Program-made: the position numbers and the translations under genes
Shown: positions 22,244 to 64,000 of the stretch, piece by piece
Position numbering within the stretch: position 1 is the first letter of the stretch
Layout of the letters: each line of letters opens with the position of its first letter
From: a virus
Direction: 5' to 3' (one strand)
Virus record (IMG/VR): IMGVR_UViG_3300050821_002279
Location: 12,956 to 76,955 of that record
Length of the DNA: 64,000 nt
The notes under the pieces: model-generated
The model's database searches: none
What the model saw: the letters and a program-made list of their open reading frames with translations, nothing else
Told to the model about the DNA's origin: nothing

Positions 22244-22875
22244 AAATGAAGCTTAGTCGCATTGGCGGCGTACCGTATGGTGGCCGATACGAAATCAACC
22301 GCCCCGATCTCGGAATGGTCGGCATGGGCACGGCGTTCGATATGCTTGAGACCAACGTGCGCAGATATCGTAAGGCCAACGGCATCCCAACCGGCCTTGG
22401 TTTTTCAGAAGAACTTGAGCAAGAAATTTGTAAGCTCTACCCCCAGGAATGTGAGCACGCCGATCCAAATCTGCCGTCAAATATCCGGCTCAGCTTTGAA
22501 GATGTCGTTCACGGCACGCAAGTGCTGGCATCGTTTAAACTCGCCGGATCTCCTTTAGTTCCCAAGCAAGAGGCGGAAAGACGCGCTTCGATTTGTTCTC
22601 AATGCAAGCTTCTTGTTCCATTTGCGCGGCCTTGCGGCGGGCTATGCGGAGCATTGAAGACCGCCGTGGACGAACTCGTTGGCGGATACGAAATCGCTTT
22701 CGACAACGATTTGCGGGCGTGCGGTATCTGTCATTGCTTCGCCGCCTCACAGGTGAGGATACCATACGAACACCTCGAAAAAGGGCTCACCGAGCAGATG
22801 AAGGTGCAGTTTCAGGCGGCAAAGGCTGCGTGGGGGTGTTGGAAGGTGCAAGATTCTTCCACATCCGCCCCTTGA
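22240..22875 (+). CDS. Cys-rich hypothetical protein
   Basis: Motifs 'ICSQC', 'CGGLC' and 'CGICHC'; coupled to terL. Confidence 0.6.
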   Translation: MKMKLSRIGGVPYGGRYEINRPDLGMVGMGTAFDMLETNVRRYRKANGIPTGLGFSEELEQEICKLYPQECEHADPNLPSNIRLSFEDVVHGTQVLASFKLAGSPLVPKQEAERRASICSQCKLLVPFARPCGGLCGALKTAVDELVGGYEIAFDNDLRACGICHCFAASQVRIPYEHLEKGLTEQMKVQFQAAKAAWGCWKVQDSSTSAP

Positions 22876-23482
22876 TAATATTGCGGATGGTCTCACGAAG
22901 AACTCCGCACTCCTTCGCCATGCCAGCCACAAGGCCCCATTTAGATTTACTTGAATTGTAGCGCTGTCTTATTTTCAAAACTTGCTCCTCGGTAAACTTT
23001 GTAGTAACCGGGTGTTTCCTTGGTGGTTCGGTGAGAATTCGCTCGTCAGACCATCCTAGTTTCTTTCTTTGGTGGATTAGTTTTATAGATATGCCTGTTA
23101 TTGTTTCCCATTCTTTGGCGTGGAGTGTTTGACCTTCGAACGTTAACAAACTCCTCGGTCTCCGATTCAGCGCTTGTTCATTTGGATTTGCCCACCGGCA
23201 ATTCATGGGCCAATTGTTAGCAATGCATTCAGGACACTGACCGCACGAATAATGACCGTCATTATTTTTCCGATCTAACGATCTCCCTTCAGGACATGGC
23301 CCCATTATAGCCATGAAATTCAACTTGTCTTTAAAACCCTCACACATCTTAATTCCGCGACCTCCGTAGGCAAAATAATTCCAGCATTTCGGATTGCTGG
23401 TTCTTGCAAAGGCACTCCTTTGCGCGTGAAAAGCTCTAATTACTTCCTTGAAATGGACTACTTGGTTTTCAAACGGTTTCAT
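22787..23482 (-). CDS. HNH-type homing endonuclease
   Basis: 'YGGRGIKMCE..K...F...MG.CPEG.SLDRKNNDGHYSCG.C..C...NCRWA...EQALNRR' plus a C-terminal HTH; similar to 41637..42299. Confidence 0.85.
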   Translation of the reverse strand: MKPFENQVVHFKEVIRAFHAQRSAFARTSNPKCWNYFAYGGRGIKMCEGFKDKLNFMAIMGPCPEGRSLDRKNNDGHYSCGQCPECIANNWPMNCRWANPNEQALNRRPRSLLTFEGQTLHAKEWETITGISIKLIHQRKKLGWSDERILTEPPRKHPVTTKFTEEQVLKIRQRYNSSKSKWGLVAGMAKECGVLRETIRNIIKGRMWKNLAPSNTPTQPLPPETAPSSAR

Positions 23483-23639
23483 AACAAAACTCCGCGAAAC
23501 AGGTTGTAACGTTCGGCCCATTTGAGGCAAAACACCCGAAACGCGGAGCTAAATTGTCTTGATTATTAAGGTAAAACGAACCAAACGTTACGGTGTGAGC
23601 ATAAAACTTAACGCAAACCAAGTCAACCAAGGAGTTTAA

Positions 23640-25919
23640 ATGTCTTACGTCGGCGGAGAAGGTGATTACGGCTTGGAGAGTCTCCAGCTAAAAGAAAACG
23701 GAGGCGTTGCGGTTCCCGAGACGCGCATGAAGTCTGCGGCCCAGGTGCAAGACTTTGGCCGTCGCCTGTGGTTCAATGATGAGAAACGTTCCTTAAAAAG
23801 AGGCAAGGTAAATGGGCTCGTCGGTGGTTTTCCGCCGTACCGCAATTCGAAGCTTCGGGATGCTGGGCTCGCGGCCAACTGTAACGCCAACTTCGGCACC
23901 GCTTCTGCCTACATGGAGAACGGTTCAGGAGCATACTACGATCTTTTCTCCGAAGCCCCCGGCACTGTTGGCATAAAAACCTCTCACGGCACGGATGAGC
24001 AAAGAGATGATTATTCCCGCATCATGTCGTCTGAAGCCGATAAGATTTTCGCCAAAGACGATCTTTGGGATTACGAGATGCAAAGGAGTCAATGGGAAAT
24101 GACGCTGCACGGTCCCGGGCCATTAATCTTCGAAGATGCTTTCAAAGTGCTTCCGCGTGCTGTCGGGGCTGGCGATTTCAAAGTGCCCGAACGAACCAAG
24201 GCTGATGCCGGGTATTACGAAATTGTTTGGGCTGATGTCGATTATTACCCGCCAGAGCTGTACCAGTTTATCAAAAACGAGGCGGCGGCGGCTCAGGTTG
24301 GATGGGATGTCGATTACACTCAGCGTTGCATTGCAAACGCGATGGATATTCGGCAACCAGAGCAGCGCGGGTACGACTGGGAATTTTACCAACAGGAAAT
24401 CAAGAACAACAGTCTTAGCTATTACGACGATTCAAAGGTTATTCACGTCGGCATTTGCTGGTGGAAAGAGTTCGATGGCAGGATTACCCAGGCAATCGTT
24501 GAGCGGGAGAGCACAACGGCAGAAGCTAGCACGGACGATTTGAGCAAGGGCGATGGGGGCGGGGTTAAATTCCTGTTCATCCACATAGGCCGGTACGCGA
24601 ACTTTCGGGAAGCGGTTCATCCGATGTACTTCGACCGTGGCAACGGCGGGTACCATCATTCGGTCACGGGGCTTGGCTCGAAGATGTATTCGGCGATGGA
24701 ATTCGAAAATCGTGGCCTTTGCCGCCTCTGGGACGGCGTATTCGCCCCCAAAGTCCTCTTCAAGCCGACAACCACGGAAGCCTCTCAGAAGATGCAGCTT
24801 GCCCACATGGGCAACTACGGCGTCATTCCCGCTGGATGGGAGGCAGAGGACATGCCGATTAATGGTTATATCAACGAGGGCTTGGCGATGTACCGGGCAT
24901 CGTCGGACCTGATGCGCTCGAATCTTTCGAATTATCGGCAGCAACCGGAGCCACAGAAACCCGGAAACCCGGAAACAAAGTTTGGTCGTCAACTCGATGC
25001 TGCCGCGCAATCCAGCCTTTCGAAAACCACGTTTAATCGGTACTACCGACAGCTTGATTTGCTTTACGCCGAGATTGTTCGACGGCTTTGCAATCTCAAC
25101 TCGACGGATAAACGCGCTCAAGAATTTCAGCAGCGTTGCATGGATCAAGGCGTTCCAAAGGAATGCTTCGGTCGAATTGAAAGTGTGGAAGCAATTCGGG
25201 TCGTTGGCGAAGGCAGCGCGTTTCTTCGAAAATCTTCTCTTGGAGAGATGGGCAGTCTTGTGCCTGGATTACCAGAAGAAGGACAGCAAGCCTGGAAAGA
25301 CGATATGATTGCCGCGACGTGCGGTCAACGCAGCGTCTCGCGGTACAACCCAAGGAAGACGCCGGGGAAGATGCCGAATGACCAGCAATTCATGGCGCTC
25401 GAAGGCGTTTGCATGATGAAGAACGGCATTCCGCCGATTGTCACGTCATCGCAGAACGCGGTTACTTTTGCAGCCGCATATCTAAACGCTGGCGTGCAAG
25501 CCCTGCAAAGCGTCCAGAAGGGCGGAAACCCGGCAGAAGTATTGAAGTTCCTGGGACTGTGCGGACCCGCGATTCTGGCGCATCTAAAGCGATTTGCCAA
25601 AGATCCGTTGCGGCAGCAGGTTTTCAAGGCGATCTTAAAACAGTTTCAGCAGTTGGCTAAACTCACAGACCAATTGAAGAAAAAAGTTCAACAGATGCAG
25701 CAAAAGCAGAAGGAACAACAAGACAAGACGCAACAAGCGATGTCCGACCAGCAGATCGCCACTCAAAAGTTGAAGGGTGACGAAGCCAGAAAAAACGCGA
25801 AGCTTCAATTCCAAATCAAGAGGGATGCAATTAAAACGCGCTCTCAACTCGCCATTGCAGACGCCCAAGCGGCTTCACAGATTCATAGAAGTAATTCGTT
25901 AGCTGCTTTTCAAGAATAA
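23640..25919 (+). CDS. Portal (head-tail connector) protein
   Basis: 759 aa, downstream of terL, AAGGAG RBS, Gln-rich coiled-coil C-terminal barrel as in P22-like portals. Confidence 0.75.
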   Translation: MSYVGGEGDYGLESLQLKENGGVAVPETRMKSAAQVQDFGRRLWFNDEKRSLKRGKVNGLVGGFPPYRNSKLRDAGLAANCNANFGTASAYMENGSGAYYDLFSEAPGTVGIKTSHGTDEQRDDYSRIMSSEADKIFAKDDLWDYEMQRSQWEMTLHGPGPLIFEDAFKVLPRAVGAGDFKVPERTKADAGYYEIVWADVDYYPPELYQFIKNEAAAAQVGWDVDYTQRCIANAMDIRQPEQRGYDWEFYQQEIKNNSLSYYDDSKVIHVGICWWKEFDGRITQAIVERESTTAEASTDDLSKGDGGGVKFLFIHIGRYANFREAVHPMYFDRGNGGYHHSVTGLGSKMYSAMEFENRGLCRLWDGVFAPKVLFKPTTTEASQKMQLAHMGNYGVIPAGWEAEDMPINGYINEGLAMYRASSDLMRSNLSNYRQQPEPQKPGNPETKFGRQLDAAAQSSLSKTTFNRYYRQLDLLYAEIVRRLCNLNSTDKRAQEFQQRCMDQGVPKECFGRIESVEAIRVVGEGSAFLRKSSLGEMGSLVPGLPEEGQQAWKDDMIAATCGQRSVSRYNPRKTPGKMPNDQQFMALEGVCMMKNGIPPIVTSSQNAVTFAAAYLNAGVQALQSVQKGGNPAEVLKFLGLCGPAILAHLKRFAKDPLRQQVFKAILKQFQQLAKLTDQLKKKVQQMQQKQKEQQDKTQQAMSDQQIATQKLKGDEARKNAKLQFQIKRDAIKTRSQLAIADAQAASQIHRSNSLAAFQE

Positions 25920-25956
25920 AAAGAAAATGACTGCCCAAAAAATCAGGCAGTCATTT
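25919..25956. terminator. Probable bidirectional intrinsic terminator
   Basis: AAATGACTGCC-N10-GGCAGTCATTT inverted repeat between convergent units; followed by a T-rich run on the minus strand. Confidence 0.8.
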
Positions 25957-26365
25957 ATCTGACCACACCATGACTTTACTTACCAGAGATTAGCTCACCA
26001 TAGCGCACTGCATCCTGCCAGTCCCGAACTTGCCAATCCTGATTGTTCCAAACCTTACCGGCTTTTCAGCCCGTGCCTTACCAAACCAAACCGGACCCGG
26101 CCTGAGAATGGAGAGCCACAACCCGCCAAGTCTCTCCATGCCATATCATGCAACTCCACTACCTACCGCCCCACGCTCGACCTCTGCCAACCGGAACGCG
26201 CCTAAGCAGACCGGCCAAAAGGCCCGTACCAAACCTAACACTTCCGAACCACTCCGAAGCCAGCCTGACCGCACTCAACCATTCCAAACCATGCACGATC
26301 TCGCCGAAACCAGCCTTTGCTAACCGGACACGAGCCCACACTACCGCACCACTCCTGAGCGTGTC
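25955..26365 (-). ncRNA. Pentamer-repeat array (GGY-like + NN): three blocks of 28, 28 and 21 pentamers separated by 13-nt hairpins; candidate guide RNA precursor
   Basis: Block 1 26365-26226; hairpin GGGCCTTTTGGCC; block 2 26212-26073; hairpin GGGCTGAAAAGCC; block 3 26059-25955. 16/28, 17/28 and 11/21 pentamers begin with GG, and register is unbroken within blocks. Confidence 0.75.
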
Positions 26366-26367
26366 CG

Positions 26368-27000
26368 TCACAGATCGAGGATTTTGAAACCCACGATCTG
26401 AAATCTTCCGAAAGTTGGACGAAAATCCCCAACGCCGATTAACTTTCCGGCCTGCGTGATAACCTCGTTAAGCAAAGTTGGACTGACATACTCGGGAAGG
26501 TTGACCATTAATTGAATTTTGGCCGTCCACCCAGCTTTCATCGCCGGTCTCGTTCGAGTGATCGCATTTCGCTGGATCACAACCCGTCTTTTATCTTCGT
26601 AATCCCAATCCTTAACGCCAAGGCTTGCGAGGTTGGTAACGCTCACAACCGCCGCCTTGAACAGATCCGCAGCAGACTTTCTCGGACTTCGCGGGTCTTG
26701 GCGAAACTTGGATGCGGCGATGATACTCATCCGTAGGTACTCACCGGGGATGGCAAGGTTGCCTTTCTCGTCACGATAAACATAACTTTCCAAGTTATCC
26801 GACTTCTTTGCAGCACTGCCCTTCTTGGCTTTGGCCTTTTCTTCAACCGCTTCACAATTCCAACGGTGGAAAAGAAGATCCGCACTTCCCTGAATCTGAA
26901 TTTCCGCAATGTACGGAATTTCCATTTCGATTGCATCTTTAGCACCATTTGTGGGACAACGATCCCCGCCGAGTTCTGTGGTTTTTGTCGCTGATTTCAT
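26368..27000 (-). CDS. Stand-alone Cas7/RAMP-like protein (210 aa)
   Basis: RAMP-like layout: first strand 'IQIQGSADLLFH', 'LAIPGEYLRMSI' (IPG motif plus helix), thumb 'RRVVIQRNAITRTRP' and C-terminal Gly loop 'AGKLIGVGDFRPTFGRFQI'. Start is ATG 27000. Confidence 0.7.
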   Translation of the reverse strand: MKSATKTTELGGDRCPTNGAKDAIEMEIPYIAEIQIQGSADLLFHRWNCEAVEEKAKAKKGSAAKKSDNLESYVYRDEKGNLAIPGEYLRMSIIAASKFRQDPRSPRKSAADLFKAAVVSVTNLASLGVKDWDYEDKRRVVIQRNAITRTRPAMKAGWTAKIQLMVNLPEYVSPTLLNEVITQAGKLIGVGDFRPTFGRFQIVGFKILDL

Positions 27001-27003
27001 AAT

Positions 27004-27073
27004 TAACCATTCCACGCCGTAACACGCCGCGACTGGCCAAGGCAATGACGGCACTGCCGCATCCAGCCCTGCC
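27004..27073 (-). repeat. Leader pentamer array (14 units) ending 3 nt before the ATG of the RAMP-like gene
   Basis: GGCAG GGCTG GATGC GGCAG TGCCG TCATT GCCTT GGCCA GTCGC GGCGT GTTAC GGCGT GGAAT GGTTA att ATG. Confidence 0.7.
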
Positions 27074-27201
27074 GTGTTTCTGGCAACGCACCCGCCCGTC
27101 GATTGCTGTAACGCAGCAGTTGGGAACCGCTACCAAACGGCGAACGAGTGCAAATTTGTTTTGGTTGTTTCATCCGGTTACAGTCGGACTTTACGCTTGC
27201 T

Positions 27202-27229
27202 ACTTTATCAAAAATGGCATTACTGTCAA
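27202..27229 (-). promoter_or_regulatory. Sigma70-like promoter for the RAMP/array unit
   Basis: TTGACA (27229-27224), 16-nt spacer ending TGA, then TAAAGT (27207-27202), i.e. an extended -10. Confidence 0.6.
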
Positions 27230-27238
27230 CTAGAATTT

Positions 27239-27382
27239 ATGCCCGAAGGTTCCACCGATACCGACGATCAAGGTTTGCCAGAAGACGAGCCGGATGATTC
27301 TGATGAAGACGAGTGCGAAACTCCAGCCGATATTTTCCGCAGCCGCACCGAAGACTTAGGCGATAACCCGCAAACACGATAA
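27239..27382 (+). CDS. Small acidic hypothetical protein
   Basis: ATG 27239, D/E-rich, coupled to the next ORF. Confidence 0.35.
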   Translation: MPEGSTDTDDQGLPEDEPDDSDEDECETPADIFRSRTEDLGDNPQTR

Positions 27383-27579
27383 TGCCAGATAGAGAACAGG
27401 GTAAAATGCTTATGAGTGACTTCGGCTGGTGCCTGGAGTCGGATAAGCCTGAGCGCAAAGACCTTTTATGGGTGCCTACGGGGACGAAGGATATTTACGT
27501 TTGGCAAAGCGATGAAGACGGCTGGATAAAGATTCGACCGCCGCAGACGTTTCCGTGCAGAGAACTCAACCACGGTTAG
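27382..27579 (+). CDS. Hypothetical protein
   Basis: Coupled ORF immediately before the ATP-grasp gene. Confidence 0.4.
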   Translation: MPDREQGKMLMSDFGWCLESDKPERKDLLWVPTGTKDIYVWQSDEDGWIKIRPPQTFPCRELNHG

Positions 27580-29879: not shown

Positions 29880-30791
29880 ATGAAAACCACAGTCATTCAC
29901 CACAGCGCAGACTACGACGGCATTTTCTGCCGTGAAATTGCACGGAAGTTTTTGACTGAAGCTGAGTTGATCGGATGGGATTTTGCCGATCCGCCACTGC
30001 CGGTCCCTGAAGGAAACGTGCTTGTCATGGATCTGCCACTGGACGCAACGTTTGGTGGAAAGTCTGGACAGTTCAACATGGGAGTCGTAAACGCATGGGA
30101 GTCCAACCGCTTGATTTGGATTGATCATCATCAAAGCGCGATAAAAACGCACCCCCCTGAAGTTGGCGGCTATCAAATCGACGGCGTTGCAGCATGTCGG
30201 TTGGCGTGGCAATGGTTCACTCAGACCGGACCCGACAATCCCCCCAGCGATCCGGCGCTTGCTAAAAAGGAAGACTTCATAGAGCGCAGGGTTTCAGAGC
30301 CAATCGCTGTTCGCCTCGCCGGTGAATACGACATTTGGGACAAACGCGATCCTAACGCTGAACTGTTTCAGCATGGATTGAGAAGCCAGGAGCTTTCGCG
30401 TAACGAATGGGAATGGTTGCTCAGCATGAATCCCGGGGCAGTTCAAGTAGTTGAAAAGCTACTCAATCAGGGCTCTGCGGTTCAATATGCTCAACGCAAG
30501 CAAGACGAGTTCATTGCCAAAAGCCGCTCATTCGACGTGGAATGGGAGGGCTTGAAGTTCATGGCGATTAACGCCGTGCGCTGCAACTCTCTGACGTTCG
30601 AGGCCGCAACCCGTGCAGACCACGACGCGCTTATGGGCTTCTACTGGAACGGCAAATTCTGGAACGTGAGCCTGTACCATGCGCCGCACCGGAAGGATTT
30701 GGACCTGTCGGCCATCGCAGTGAAGTACGGCGGCGGCGGTCACAGGGGAGCATGCGGTTTCAGGGCTGATAAACTTCCGTTTATTCCGTAG
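29880..30791 (+). CDS. DHH-family phosphoesterase
   Basis: 'HHSADYDG', 'WIDHH', 'YDIW' and 'YGGGGHRGACGF'. Confidence 0.9.
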   Translation: MKTTVIHHSADYDGIFCREIARKFLTEAELIGWDFADPPLPVPEGNVLVMDLPLDATFGGKSGQFNMGVVNAWESNRLIWIDHHQSAIKTHPPEVGGYQIDGVAACRLAWQWFTQTGPDNPPSDPALAKKEDFIERRVSEPIAVRLAGEYDIWDKRDPNAELFQHGLRSQELSRNEWEWLLSMNPGAVQVVEKLLNQGSAVQYAQRKQDEFIAKSRSFDVEWEGLKFMAINAVRCNSLTFEAATRADHDALMGFYWNGKFWNVSLYHAPHRKDLDLSAIAVKYGGGGHRGACGFRADKLPFIP

Positions 30792-63282: not shown

Positions 63283-64000
63283 TCACGTCAGAACTTCGGC
63301 ATCCACGTGCCAGCCTTGGTTTCTCCAGTTAAGGCTTTCGGTGATTGTTTTGCATGACGGGTCCACCCCTTCAAGGTGAAATGTTTGAATGGAGGGGTTG
63401 ATCATGCGCAAATAGCGCGCATCTCGGACCTCATCGGAAAGCTTTATTGAAAGCAATTCGTAGTTGCCCCGCTTATCTAAGGATTTATGTGGCAGCTTTG
63501 CCAGCATTCGCTCAATCCCGACCTTTCGCAGCAATTCCCGGCGACGATCCGCGTTCGGCTCTTTCAAAACAGAATCCGGCTCGATCTTTTCGGCAGGCGT
63601 TAAGACTTGTTCCGGCTCCATAGCGATACCGTTTAGATAAAAAAGTTTCCAGCCATCCGAATATTCAAGGGCAGCGGCTTCGTCTTTGTGTAGTTGGCCG
63701 GATGCGTTCCGGGAGATGGACGATGGGCGGCTTCCGACAATGAGGATGTTATCCAGCGGATAAAACAACCCAAGCTCCGCGCAGGACTCCAAATAACCGT
63801 AGTCATTAGGGATTCCAGAAACCCCGATAAATTCCATTGCGCGAACCCAAGCGAAGTATTGCGCCCAGAAGTGTCCGGAAAAATAGGGCCAGATGAAAGA
63901 CTCCACTTGCGACCACACTTGCGACCACACTTGCGACTCCACTTGCGACCCCACTTGCGACCACACTTGCGACCGCACTTGCGACTCCACTTGCGACCCC
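63283..64000 (-). CDS. DUF6745-like protein, 5'-truncated by the window edge
   Basis: xSQV tetrapeptide repeats followed by 'RP..ISRN..GQLH.D...ALEY.DGW..F.LNG' and 'YLRM.NPS'. Confidence 0.65.
   Translation of the reverse strand, partial: GSQVESQVRSQVWSQVGSQVESQVWSQVWSQVESFIWPYFSGHFWAQYFAWVRAMEFIGVSGIPNDYGYLESCAELGLFYPLDNILIVGSRPSSISRNASGQLHKDEAAALEYSDGWKLFYLNGIAMEPEQVLTPAEKIEPDSVLKEPNADRRRELLRKVGIERMLAKLPHKSLDKRGNYELLSIKLSDEVRDARYLRMINPSIQTFHLEGVDPSCKTITESLNWRNQGWHVDAEVLT
63900..64000. repeat. 12-nt tandem coding repeat (CACTTGCGAC core)
   Basis: About 8 visible units encoding (W/E/G/R)SQV; runs off the window end. Confidence 0.9.

What the first reader, a model, noticed from the sequence alone, without database searches (positions are those of the whole stretch)
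27004..27185. Leader array matches its own promoter-proximal DNA in a read-2-skip-1 code (possible autoregulation)
Seen: leader pentamers 6-12 carry NN = tt tt ca gc gt ac gt. The plus strand at 27165-27185 reads TTg TTt CAt cCg GTt ACa GTc, so 13 of 14 coded bases match when every third base is skipped. The flanking pentamers do not match. The site lies roughly 10-30 nt downstream of the predicted transcription start (-10 box at 27207-27202). Inference: the leader is a self-targeting guide that represses the system's own promoter, and it reveals the decoding rule. The array also ends 3 nt before the ATG, so protein coating could block translation as well. The match is short and was found by eye.
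Basis: partly seen in the sequence, partly recalled or inferred. Interest (0 to 1): 0.85.

Follow-up and report, generated by a model that had tools for sequence, protein, structure and literature searches.

The report
VIPR guide RNA partly matching itself
The five-base repeats before this phage gene are a guide RNA of a VIPR system (a CRISPR-like DNA silencer described in 2026); its half-length match to its own promoter-proximal DNA is real and locally unlikely by chance, but relatives lack it, so self-regulation is unproven.

Summary
The text is as described. Leader units 6-12 match plus-strand 27165-27185 at 13 of 14 coded bases when every third base is skipped. Shuffles reach this in 4 of 5000 trials (skip 1) and 3 of 1500 (any skip 0-3).

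The locus is a VIPR system: a Vipr RAMP protein plus GGY/NN guide arrays. "Read-2-skip-1" is the published 1-nt skip rule, so system and code are already known (bioRxiv, 2026). This scan has met VIPR before in at least seven other genomes.

The autoregulation reading is weak:
- Only 14 of 28 guide bases match, against the 80% or more the discoverers required.
- The two 3'-most units fail.
- A hit of this quality somewhere in the 77-kb genome is ordinary. Only its position is unusual.
- Of 12 relatives with the same leader architecture, none keeps the site. One has a weak match on the other strand.
- The site lies in a conserved, covarying 5' hairpin.
- The same guide matches a csrA-family gene of a related phage better (21 of 28, skip base on the wobble position).

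Verdict: a new member of a known kind. I put lineage-specific self-repression at about 0.3.

The parts
27202..27229 (-). Predicted sigma-70 promoter of the vipr unit (TTGACA, 16 nt, TG-TAAAGT). The transcription start is inferred near 27195.
   Evidence: the only promoter-like site in 25850-27450. A TTGAC-type -35 box aligns in most relatives.
27172..27189 (-). Conserved 5' leader hairpin: stem GTCCG/CGGAT, 8-nt loop ACTGTAAC.
   Evidence: 11 loci, 92.6% of cells paired, 3 of 5 pairs with compensatory changes, 0 of 500 shuffles as high.
27162..27185 (+). Self-match site, read on the guide-identical strand: TGg TTg TTt CAt CCg GTt ACa GTc. It covers the hairpin loop, the 3' stem and the variable flank.
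27074..27171 (-). Rest of the conserved structured leader: A-rich stretch, TTTGCAC box, a second variable hairpin, GGTGC box.
   Evidence: Alignment of 12 loci. No Rfam family matched.
27004..27073 (-). Upstream vrRNA: 14 GGY/NN-type pentamers, 7 of them canonical GGY. The last two units (GGAAT GGTTA) sit where relatives keep a GG.A.GGTT motif that probably serves as ribosome-binding site.
26368..27000 (-). vipr gene: 210-aa RAMP/Cas7-like protein (P0001).
   Evidence: Family-profile hit to the SUSP1 Vipr structure 36pp_D, E 3.5e-16. AlphaFold model with pLDDT 92 whose best fold matches are Csm3/Cas7. phrog_4652.
26903..26928 (-). Codons 25-33 of vipr (EMEIPYIAE). This is the predicted target of the upstream vrRNA of a related phage (L017), at 17 of 20 with the skip base on the wobble position.
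25955..26365 (-). Downstream vrRNA arrays. My caller finds three blocks of 29, 31 and 21 pentamers, separated by small tetraloop hairpins.
25925..25956 (-). Intrinsic terminator that closes the unit.

Best explanation
The 14 pentamers are the upstream guide RNA (vrRNA) of a phage VIPR system.

Mechanism, taken from the published work. One Vipr protomer binds each GGY. This builds a helical filament that presents the NN dinucleotides. The NN pair with DNA in which every third base is skipped, forming an R-loop triplex that blocks transcription.

My inference. The main job of this guide is to silence foreign DNA. The best candidate found here is a csrA-family gene carried by a related phage. The 7-unit match to +11..+33 of the guide's own transcription unit is real and locally improbable. 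It is not a conserved operator of this VIPR clade. Most likely it is a coincidence inside a leader element that is conserved for its RNA hairpin. At most it is a weak, lineage-specific brake.
For: The locus is a VIPR system.
- The P0001 family profile hits SUSP1 Vipr at E 3.5e-16, with the G-loop GDFRPxFGRF, H45 and R151 aligned to residues that contact GGY.
- The fold is Cas7/Csm3-like.
- Period-5 G arrays flank the gene in 89 of 93 non-redundant homologous loci.

The rule is published, and it holds in this clade.

Against a conserved operator.
- In the guide-versus-own-leader matrix of 13 loci with the same leader architecture, W scores 12.5 and L001 scores 10 on the other strand. The rest score 6-9, the same as off-diagonal pairs.
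- In L001 the W-type site is broken by an indel and substitutions, although the two guides are homologous.
- The site lies in a covarying hairpin.

The match is partial: 14 of 28 bases, with 3' units 13-14 unmatched. R-loops grow 3' to 5'.

Genome-wide, a score of 12.5 is typical for shuffled guides.

A better target exists. At L101 4218-4252, in a gene matching Pfam CsrA at E 4.7e-18, the guide matches 21 of 28 bases and 21 of 24 over units 2-13, with the skip base on the wobble position. None of 400 shuffles reached that score in 0.87 Mb. The W genome has no csrA.

The other significant self-matches in the family (L011, L144, L153, L136) are all in-frame matches to the neighbouring gene. None is at a promoter.
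Against: - The local p of about 0.001 holds under three different nulls. It is the single outlier among 169 guide-leader pairs.
- The position, just downstream of the start site, is where VIPR represses reporters, on either strand.
- If units 13-14 serve as ribosome-binding site rather than guide, the match is anchored at the 3' end, where R-loops start.
- L001 has a borderline match (p 0.01) to the same block.
- The csrA target is a single contig in IMG/VR. At 75% over the whole guide it falls below the discoverers' 80% cut.
Confidence: 0.55

Rival explanations
1. True autorepression in this phage. The Vipr filament on the upstream vrRNA binds its own DNA at +11..+33 through seven matched units and acts as a roadblock. 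This would be negative feedback comparable to the long tracrRNA that represses the cas9 promoter through a partial match (comparison from my own knowledge).
For: - Local p of 0.0008-0.002.
- The skip rule is the correct one.
- The site is promoter-proximal, and either strand works.
- It is the only outlier in the guide-leader matrix.
- L001 shows a weak match to the same block.
- Stable 5- to 7-subunit intermediates form on dsDNA from the 3' side.
Against: - Half the guide is unmatched, including 3' units 13-14.
- Only 3 of the 7 matched units have a canonical GGY.
- The match is absent in L067, L017, L099-L103, L107, L113 and L119.
- The discoverers found no self-targets at 80% or more.
- The genome-wide score is ordinary.
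Confidence: 0.3
2. Pairing at the RNA level. The strand complementary to the guide is the sense strand. The filament could therefore pair with the 5' hairpin region of its own transcript, in cis or in trans, and so control processing, stability or translation.
For: - The guide NN are complementary to transcript positions +11..+33.
- VIPR forms guide-RNA duplexes with ssRNA targets, mostly as 7-subunit complexes.
- The site overlaps a conserved leader hairpin.
Against: - No relative shows it.
- The weak match in L001 is on the other strand, which excludes RNA pairing there.
- No third strand means no stable triplex.
Confidence: 0.05
3. Translational feedback alone; this does not exclude the other readings. 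Vipr coats the array up to 3 nt before the ATG and hides the ribosome-binding site. The DNA match plays no part.
For: - The array abuts the ATG in W and in about 12 relatives.
- In those loci the last two units carry a conserved GG.A.GGTT motif at Shine-Dalgarno distance.
- One protomer binds per repeat.
Against: - In most other family members, 10-30 nt with an ordinary Shine-Dalgarno sequence separate the array from the ATG.
- In SUSP1 the vrRNAs are processed to about 100-nt species, which would uncouple them from the mRNA.
Confidence: 0.3

Closest known systems
VIPR systems (Vipr + vrRNA): bioRxiv 10.64898/2026.04.26.720920 and 10.64898/2026.04.26.720927. The type II examples are Escherichia phage SUSP1 and a Pseudomonas fulva prophage.
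   Same: - A RAMP protein with conserved GGY-binding residues.
- GGY/NN pentamer arrays upstream and downstream of the gene.
- The 1-nt skip code.
- Phage-borne.
- Targets in rival phages, with the skip base on the wobble position.
   Different: - Distant in sequence (profile E 3.5e-16).
- No accessory vap gene inside the promoter-terminator unit.
- Downstream blocks of 21-31 units separated by tetraloop hairpins, instead of 9-16 units capped by a pseudoknot tail.
- A conserved structured 5' leader of about 120 nt.
- An upstream array that runs into the start codon.
- I could not assign it to one of the seven published types.
vrRNAs that target rival VIPR loci: bioRxiv 10.64898/2026.10.15.759431
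   Same: The upstream guide of L017 hits the early codons of vipr in W, L001 and L067 at 17 of 20, but its own vipr at only 13 of 20. This is the published pattern of a self-match lower than the rival match.
   Different: Here the guide under study matches its own non-coding leader better than any sampled relative's leader. That paper does not describe this case.
Autoregulation of CRISPR-Cas by partially matching guides (long tracrRNA at the cas9 promoter; crRNA-like Cas-regulating RNAs). Cited from my own knowledge, not checked here.
   Same: A guide with a short partial match to its own promoter region. It would be expected to bind without full activity and to damp expression.
   Different: Those cases are conserved across relatives and shown by experiment. 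This one is a single locus with no conservation and no data.
Cas7/Csm3 backbone of class 1 CRISPR effectors
   Same: The fold is the same: RRM core, G-loop and thumb. One protomer binds per repeat unit, and bases are flipped periodically.
   Different: A 5-nt guide period read against a 3-nt target period, with sequence-specific GGY recognition, instead of a 6-nt period on both strands.

Membership tests
VIPR system | A Vipr protein: a minimal RAMP (RRM core, G-loop, thumb) homologous to known Viprs. | tested here: met
   The profile of 49 homologues hits PDB 36pp_D (SUSP1 Vipr) at E 3.5e-16 over residues 33-203. The model has pLDDT 92, and its best Foldseek hits are Csm3/Cas7 at E about 1e-7.
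VIPR system | Residues that read GGY. In SUSP1 these are H17, R138 and D177-W178-R179. | tested here: met
   The aligned residues are H45, R151 and D192-F193-R194. R151 and R194 are kept in 90% or more of the 49 aligned homologues (residue roles).
VIPR system | Flanking arrays of GGY/NN (YNNGG) pentamers on the sense strand. | tested here: met
   All 63 minus-strand 14-unit windows of the 64-kb window that have G at period 5 in at least 11 units lie beside this gene. 89 of 93 homologous loci have such arrays.
VIPR system | Targets obey the 1-nt skip rule. | tested here: met
   L017 to vipr of W, L001 and L067: 17 of 20, in frame. W guide to L101 csrA: 21 of 28, skip on wobble. Four further matches are in frame with neighbouring genes. 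In the 58-locus test, skip 1 gave 5 loci at p below 0.01, against 1, 1 and 0 for skips 0, 2 and 3.
VIPR system | An accessory vap gene next to vipr (typical, not universal). | tested here: inconclusive
   There is no second ORF on the same strand between promoter and terminator. The neighbours have no Pfam hits. Systems with differing accessory (vap) genes and array layouts are described.
VIPR system | Carried by a virus. | tested here: met
   The genome is a 76,955-bp IMG/VR record with direct terminal repeats and 100% estimated completeness.
VIPR system | vrRNAs are expressed, processed and bound by Vipr. | not testable with these tools
   Only a promoter and a terminator are predicted.
Autoregulatory self-targeting guide | Partial complementarity to the system's own promoter-proximal DNA beyond chance. 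| tested here: met
   13 of 14 over 7 units at +11..+33. Reached by 4 of 5000 shuffles.
Autoregulatory self-targeting guide | Guide and site kept or covarying in related loci. | tested here: not met
   Diagonal scores of 6-9 in 11 of 12 relatives. L001 scores 10 on the opposite strand, and its W-type site is broken.
Autoregulatory self-targeting guide | Repression depends on the site and the guide. | not testable with these tools
   This needs a reporter assay.

The most novel reading that the evidence does not exclude
In this phage the upstream vrRNA has two roles. It attacks a rival's csrA-like gene. Through its units 6-12 it also sits on +11..+33 of its own transcription unit as a partial-match brake. 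That would be the first autoregulatory guide in a VIPR system and a counterpart to the tracrRNA-based self-repression of cas9. The three VIPR preprints report no self-targets at their 80% cut, so half-guide matches like this one would have been missed.
Probability: 0.3. Interest if true: 0.55.

Novelty: new member of a known kind. Interest (0 to 1): 0.35.

Why it matters
The system and its gapped code are already published, so the main value here is annotation. This uncultivated 77-kb phage carries a distant VIPR with very long arrays and a conserved structured leader.

Two points could interest VIPR specialists.
- Half-guide matches next to the promoter are invisible to the 80% full-length filter used so far. 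One reporter experiment would show whether VIPR can throttle itself as some CRISPR systems do.
- This clade shows the published VIPR-against-VIPR warfare: a relative's guide aimed at this phage's vipr. It also offers a candidate csrA-like target.

It is also worth noting that a reader with no tools recovered the correct decoding rule from this one match.

Tried and rejected
- Rfam search of 25800-27300 at E up to 1: only a spurious miRNA hit, so the leader and the arrays belong to no curated family.
- Pfam on ten neighbouring ORFs: nothing.
- First literature search on pentanucleotide-repeat RNA-binding proteins: nothing. The link came from the PDB sequence search.
The 96%-identical relative P0002, the best test of covariation, could not be fetched.
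- Leader-motif scan of IMG/VR: 44 hits, of which only 3 were true relatives.
- A rival leader as the real target: rejected. The W guide scores 6-7.5 on all 12 related leaders. Guide units 1-4 would have to pair with the TTTGCAC box (kept in 10 of 11 aligned leaders), which they do not match.
- Exact 9-unit guide pattern in IMG/VR: one hit, in a giant-virus contig, as expected by chance.
- The csrA-type pattern found only the L101 contig. Nineteen other phage csrA homologues score 13-18 of 28.
- Family-wide enrichment of self-matches looked at first like support for autoregulation. All four independent hits proved to be in-frame matches to neighbouring coding genes. Control regions gave 2, 0 and 1 hits.
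- The W-specific loop substitutions that create matches are not independent evidence, because the site was selected for matching.

Full report
**1. The observation**

The minus strand upstream of the ATG at 27000 reads as 14 pentamers between 27073 and 27004. G stands first in 12 of them, and 7 are canonical GGY. The NN of units 6-12 are tt tt ca gc gt ac gt. Plus strand 27165-27185 reads TTg TTt CAt CCg GTt ACa GTc, so 13 of 14 coded bases match. Unit 5 adds one base. Units 1-4 and 13-14 add none, so the whole guide matches 14 of 28. The only promoter-like site in the region is TTGACA-16-TAAAGT at 27229-27202 on the minus strand. This puts the site at about +11 to +33 of the transcript. The array ends 3 nt before the ATG. 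The text is therefore confirmed.

**2. Chance**

Searched locally, the match is unlikely:
- It is the only skip-1 hit of 13/14 or better in 64 kb on both strands. One unrelated 13/14 hit appears at skip 3.
- A local-alignment score of 12.5 is reached by 0-3 of 3000 shuffles.
- None of 551 natural guide windows from other loci reaches it.

Searched over the whole 77-kb genome, shuffled guides reach a best score of 11.1 on average, with a 95th percentile of 13.0. Only the location is improbable. If all four arrays and the whole locus count as searched, p rises to a few per cent.

**3. What the locus is**

- G at period 5 on the minus strand is concentrated at this gene. All 63 windows with at least 11 of 14 lie in the leader array or in about 410 nt of arrays after the stop codon.
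- The 210-aa protein has no Pfam family and belongs to phrog_4652. It has thousands of homologues (7477 sequences; 1194 cluster representatives).
- In 93 non-redundant homologous loci, 89 carry such arrays directly upstream or downstream, or both.
- A profile of 49 homologues hits PDB 36pp_D, "SUSP1 Vipr protein", at E 3.5e-16. The G-loop GDFRPxFGRF is aligned.
- The AlphaFold model (pLDDT 92) matches Csm3/Cas7 chains best.
- The literature then identifies the system. VIPR is a phage-borne Vipr RAMP protein plus vrRNAs of alternating GGY/NN. These recognise dsDNA by a 1-nt skip rule and silence transcription on either strand.
- Structures show one protomer per repeat, GGY flipped into the protein, NN paired with the target, every third target base extruded, and R-loop triplex formation running 3' to 5' along the guide.

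**4. The rule holds in this clade**

The 10-unit upstream guide of L017 (Vipr 79% identical) matches codons 25-33 of vipr in W, L001 and L067 at 17 of 20, with the skip base on the wobble position. It matches its own vipr at only 13 of 20. That is the rival-VIPR targeting described in the third preprint. It confirms the register (positions 4-5 are NN) and shows that short upstream arrays of this architecture act as guides.

**5. Is the self-match a regulatory device?**

I tested 58 loci that have upstream arrays against the 250 nt before the first array. Skip 1 gave 5 loci at p below 0.01. Skips 0, 2 and 3 gave 1, 1 and 0. Control regions gave 2, 0 and 1.

This looked like support until I inspected the hits. 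L011, L144, L153 and L136 each match the neighbouring protein gene in frame with the skip base on the wobble position. Two of these genes could be named: a RecT-like gene and an integrase. They are ordinary VIPR-type coding targets, most simply read as near-copies of rival homologues. They are not promoter sites. Two earlier notes of this scan describe the same pattern in other genomes.

Among the 13 loci that share W's architecture (conserved leader, short array abutting the ATG):
- The guide-versus-own-leader score is 12.5 for W.
- It is 10 for L001, on the opposite strand, at 16 of 22.
- It is 6-9 for the rest, no different from off-diagonal pairs.
- The W and L001 guides are homologous, yet the W-type site is broken in L001 by an indel and substitutions.

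**6. What the site region is**

The alignment of these leaders shows a conserved 5' hairpin: stem GTCCG/CGGAT at 27189-27185 and 27176-27172, with loop ACTGTAAC. The stems covary (TCCG/CGGA, TGCG/CGCA, ACGG/CCGT). 92.6% of cells are paired, 3 of 5 pairs carry compensatory changes, and 0 of 500 shuffles score as high. A TTTGCAC box, a second hairpin and a GGTGC box follow. No Rfam family matches. The conservation around the site is thus explained by RNA structure and does not depend on its being a VIPR target.

**7. A better target for the same guide**

Across 0.87 Mb of related loci, the W leader guide scores 16.5 at L101 4218-4252. It matches 21 of 28 bases, and 21 of 24 over units 2-13. None of 400 shuffles reached that score; their maximum was 15.5. 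The site lies in a 68-aa gene that matches Pfam CsrA at E 4.7e-18, with the skip bases on wobble positions. The W genome has no csrA. The target occurs in one IMG/VR contig only, and other phage csrA genes do not match. It is therefore a candidate and not proven.

**8. Verdict**

- The locus is a VIPR system (near certain), and the code is the known one.
- The self-match passes the shuffle test.
- It fails the conservation test, covers half the guide, and lacks the 3' units.
- Its region is constrained for another reason, and it competes with a better foreign match.
- I put 0.55 on [quoted passage not shown] and 0.3 on real lineage-specific autorepression.
- A small remainder goes to pairing with the guide's own RNA.
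- Hiding of the ribosome-binding site by the filament is plausible and independent of the match.

**9. Limits**

- Guide boundaries in this clade are inferred, not measured.
- The comparison with tracrRNA autoregulation rests on my own knowledge.

Noticed in passing
window 26903-26928 (minus strand, vipr codons 25-33): The upstream vrRNA of a related phage (L017, Ga0068865_100005591) matches this stretch at 17 of 20 with the skip base on the wobble position. It matches the same codons in L001 and L067 equally well, but its own vipr at only 13 of 20. This phage's vipr looks like a target of a rival's VIPR.
   Followed up: yes
L101 4218-4252 (IMGVR_UViG_3300010397_000013): A 68-aa CsrA-family gene in a related VIPR-bearing phage is the best match of the window's leader guide (21 of 28). 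The window's genome has no csrA. A phage-borne csrA as a VIPR target has not been reported, as far as I read.
   Followed up: partly
window 27074-27195 (minus strand): A conserved structured 5' leader of about 120 nt precedes the upstream array in about a dozen related loci: a covarying hairpin, an A-rich stretch, a TTTGCAC box, a second hairpin and a GGTGC box. No Rfam family matches. It may be this clade's counterpart of the vrRNA handle or tail, or a processing signal.
   Followed up: partly
L011 2719-2753; L144 2047-2090; L153 2278-2300; L136 2141-2163: In four unrelated family members the upstream guide matches the adjacent gene of its own genome (a RecT-like gene, an integrase and two unknowns) at about 80%, always in frame with the skip base on the wobble position. 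The pattern is guides lying next to near-copies of their targets.
   Followed up: partly
window 25955-26365: The three downstream arrays have best self-genome scores at or below the shuffle mean (10.5, 12.0 and 11.5, against means of 11.8, 12.0 and 11.4). They show no self-targets. Their natural targets were not found among the fetched loci.
   Followed up: partly
window 27003-27173 (minus strand): A 56-codon ORF starts at the ATG inside the conserved CCGGATGA box and runs through the leader array to a stop 3 nt before the vipr ATG. L001 has a similar ORF that overlaps the vipr ATG. In L017 it stops early. It is probably not coding.
   Followed up: no
window 22787-23530 (minus) and 29880-30791 (plus): An HNH endonuclease (phrog_3377, E 1e-32) and a DHH phosphoesterase (phrog_4771) flank the region. 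Most other neighbouring ORFs have no family match.
   Followed up: no
window 63899-63998: A 12-nt tandem repeat (CACTTGCGACCA, about 8 copies, with a 36-nt super-period) lies at the right end of the window, which is also the end of the genome record.
   Followed up: no
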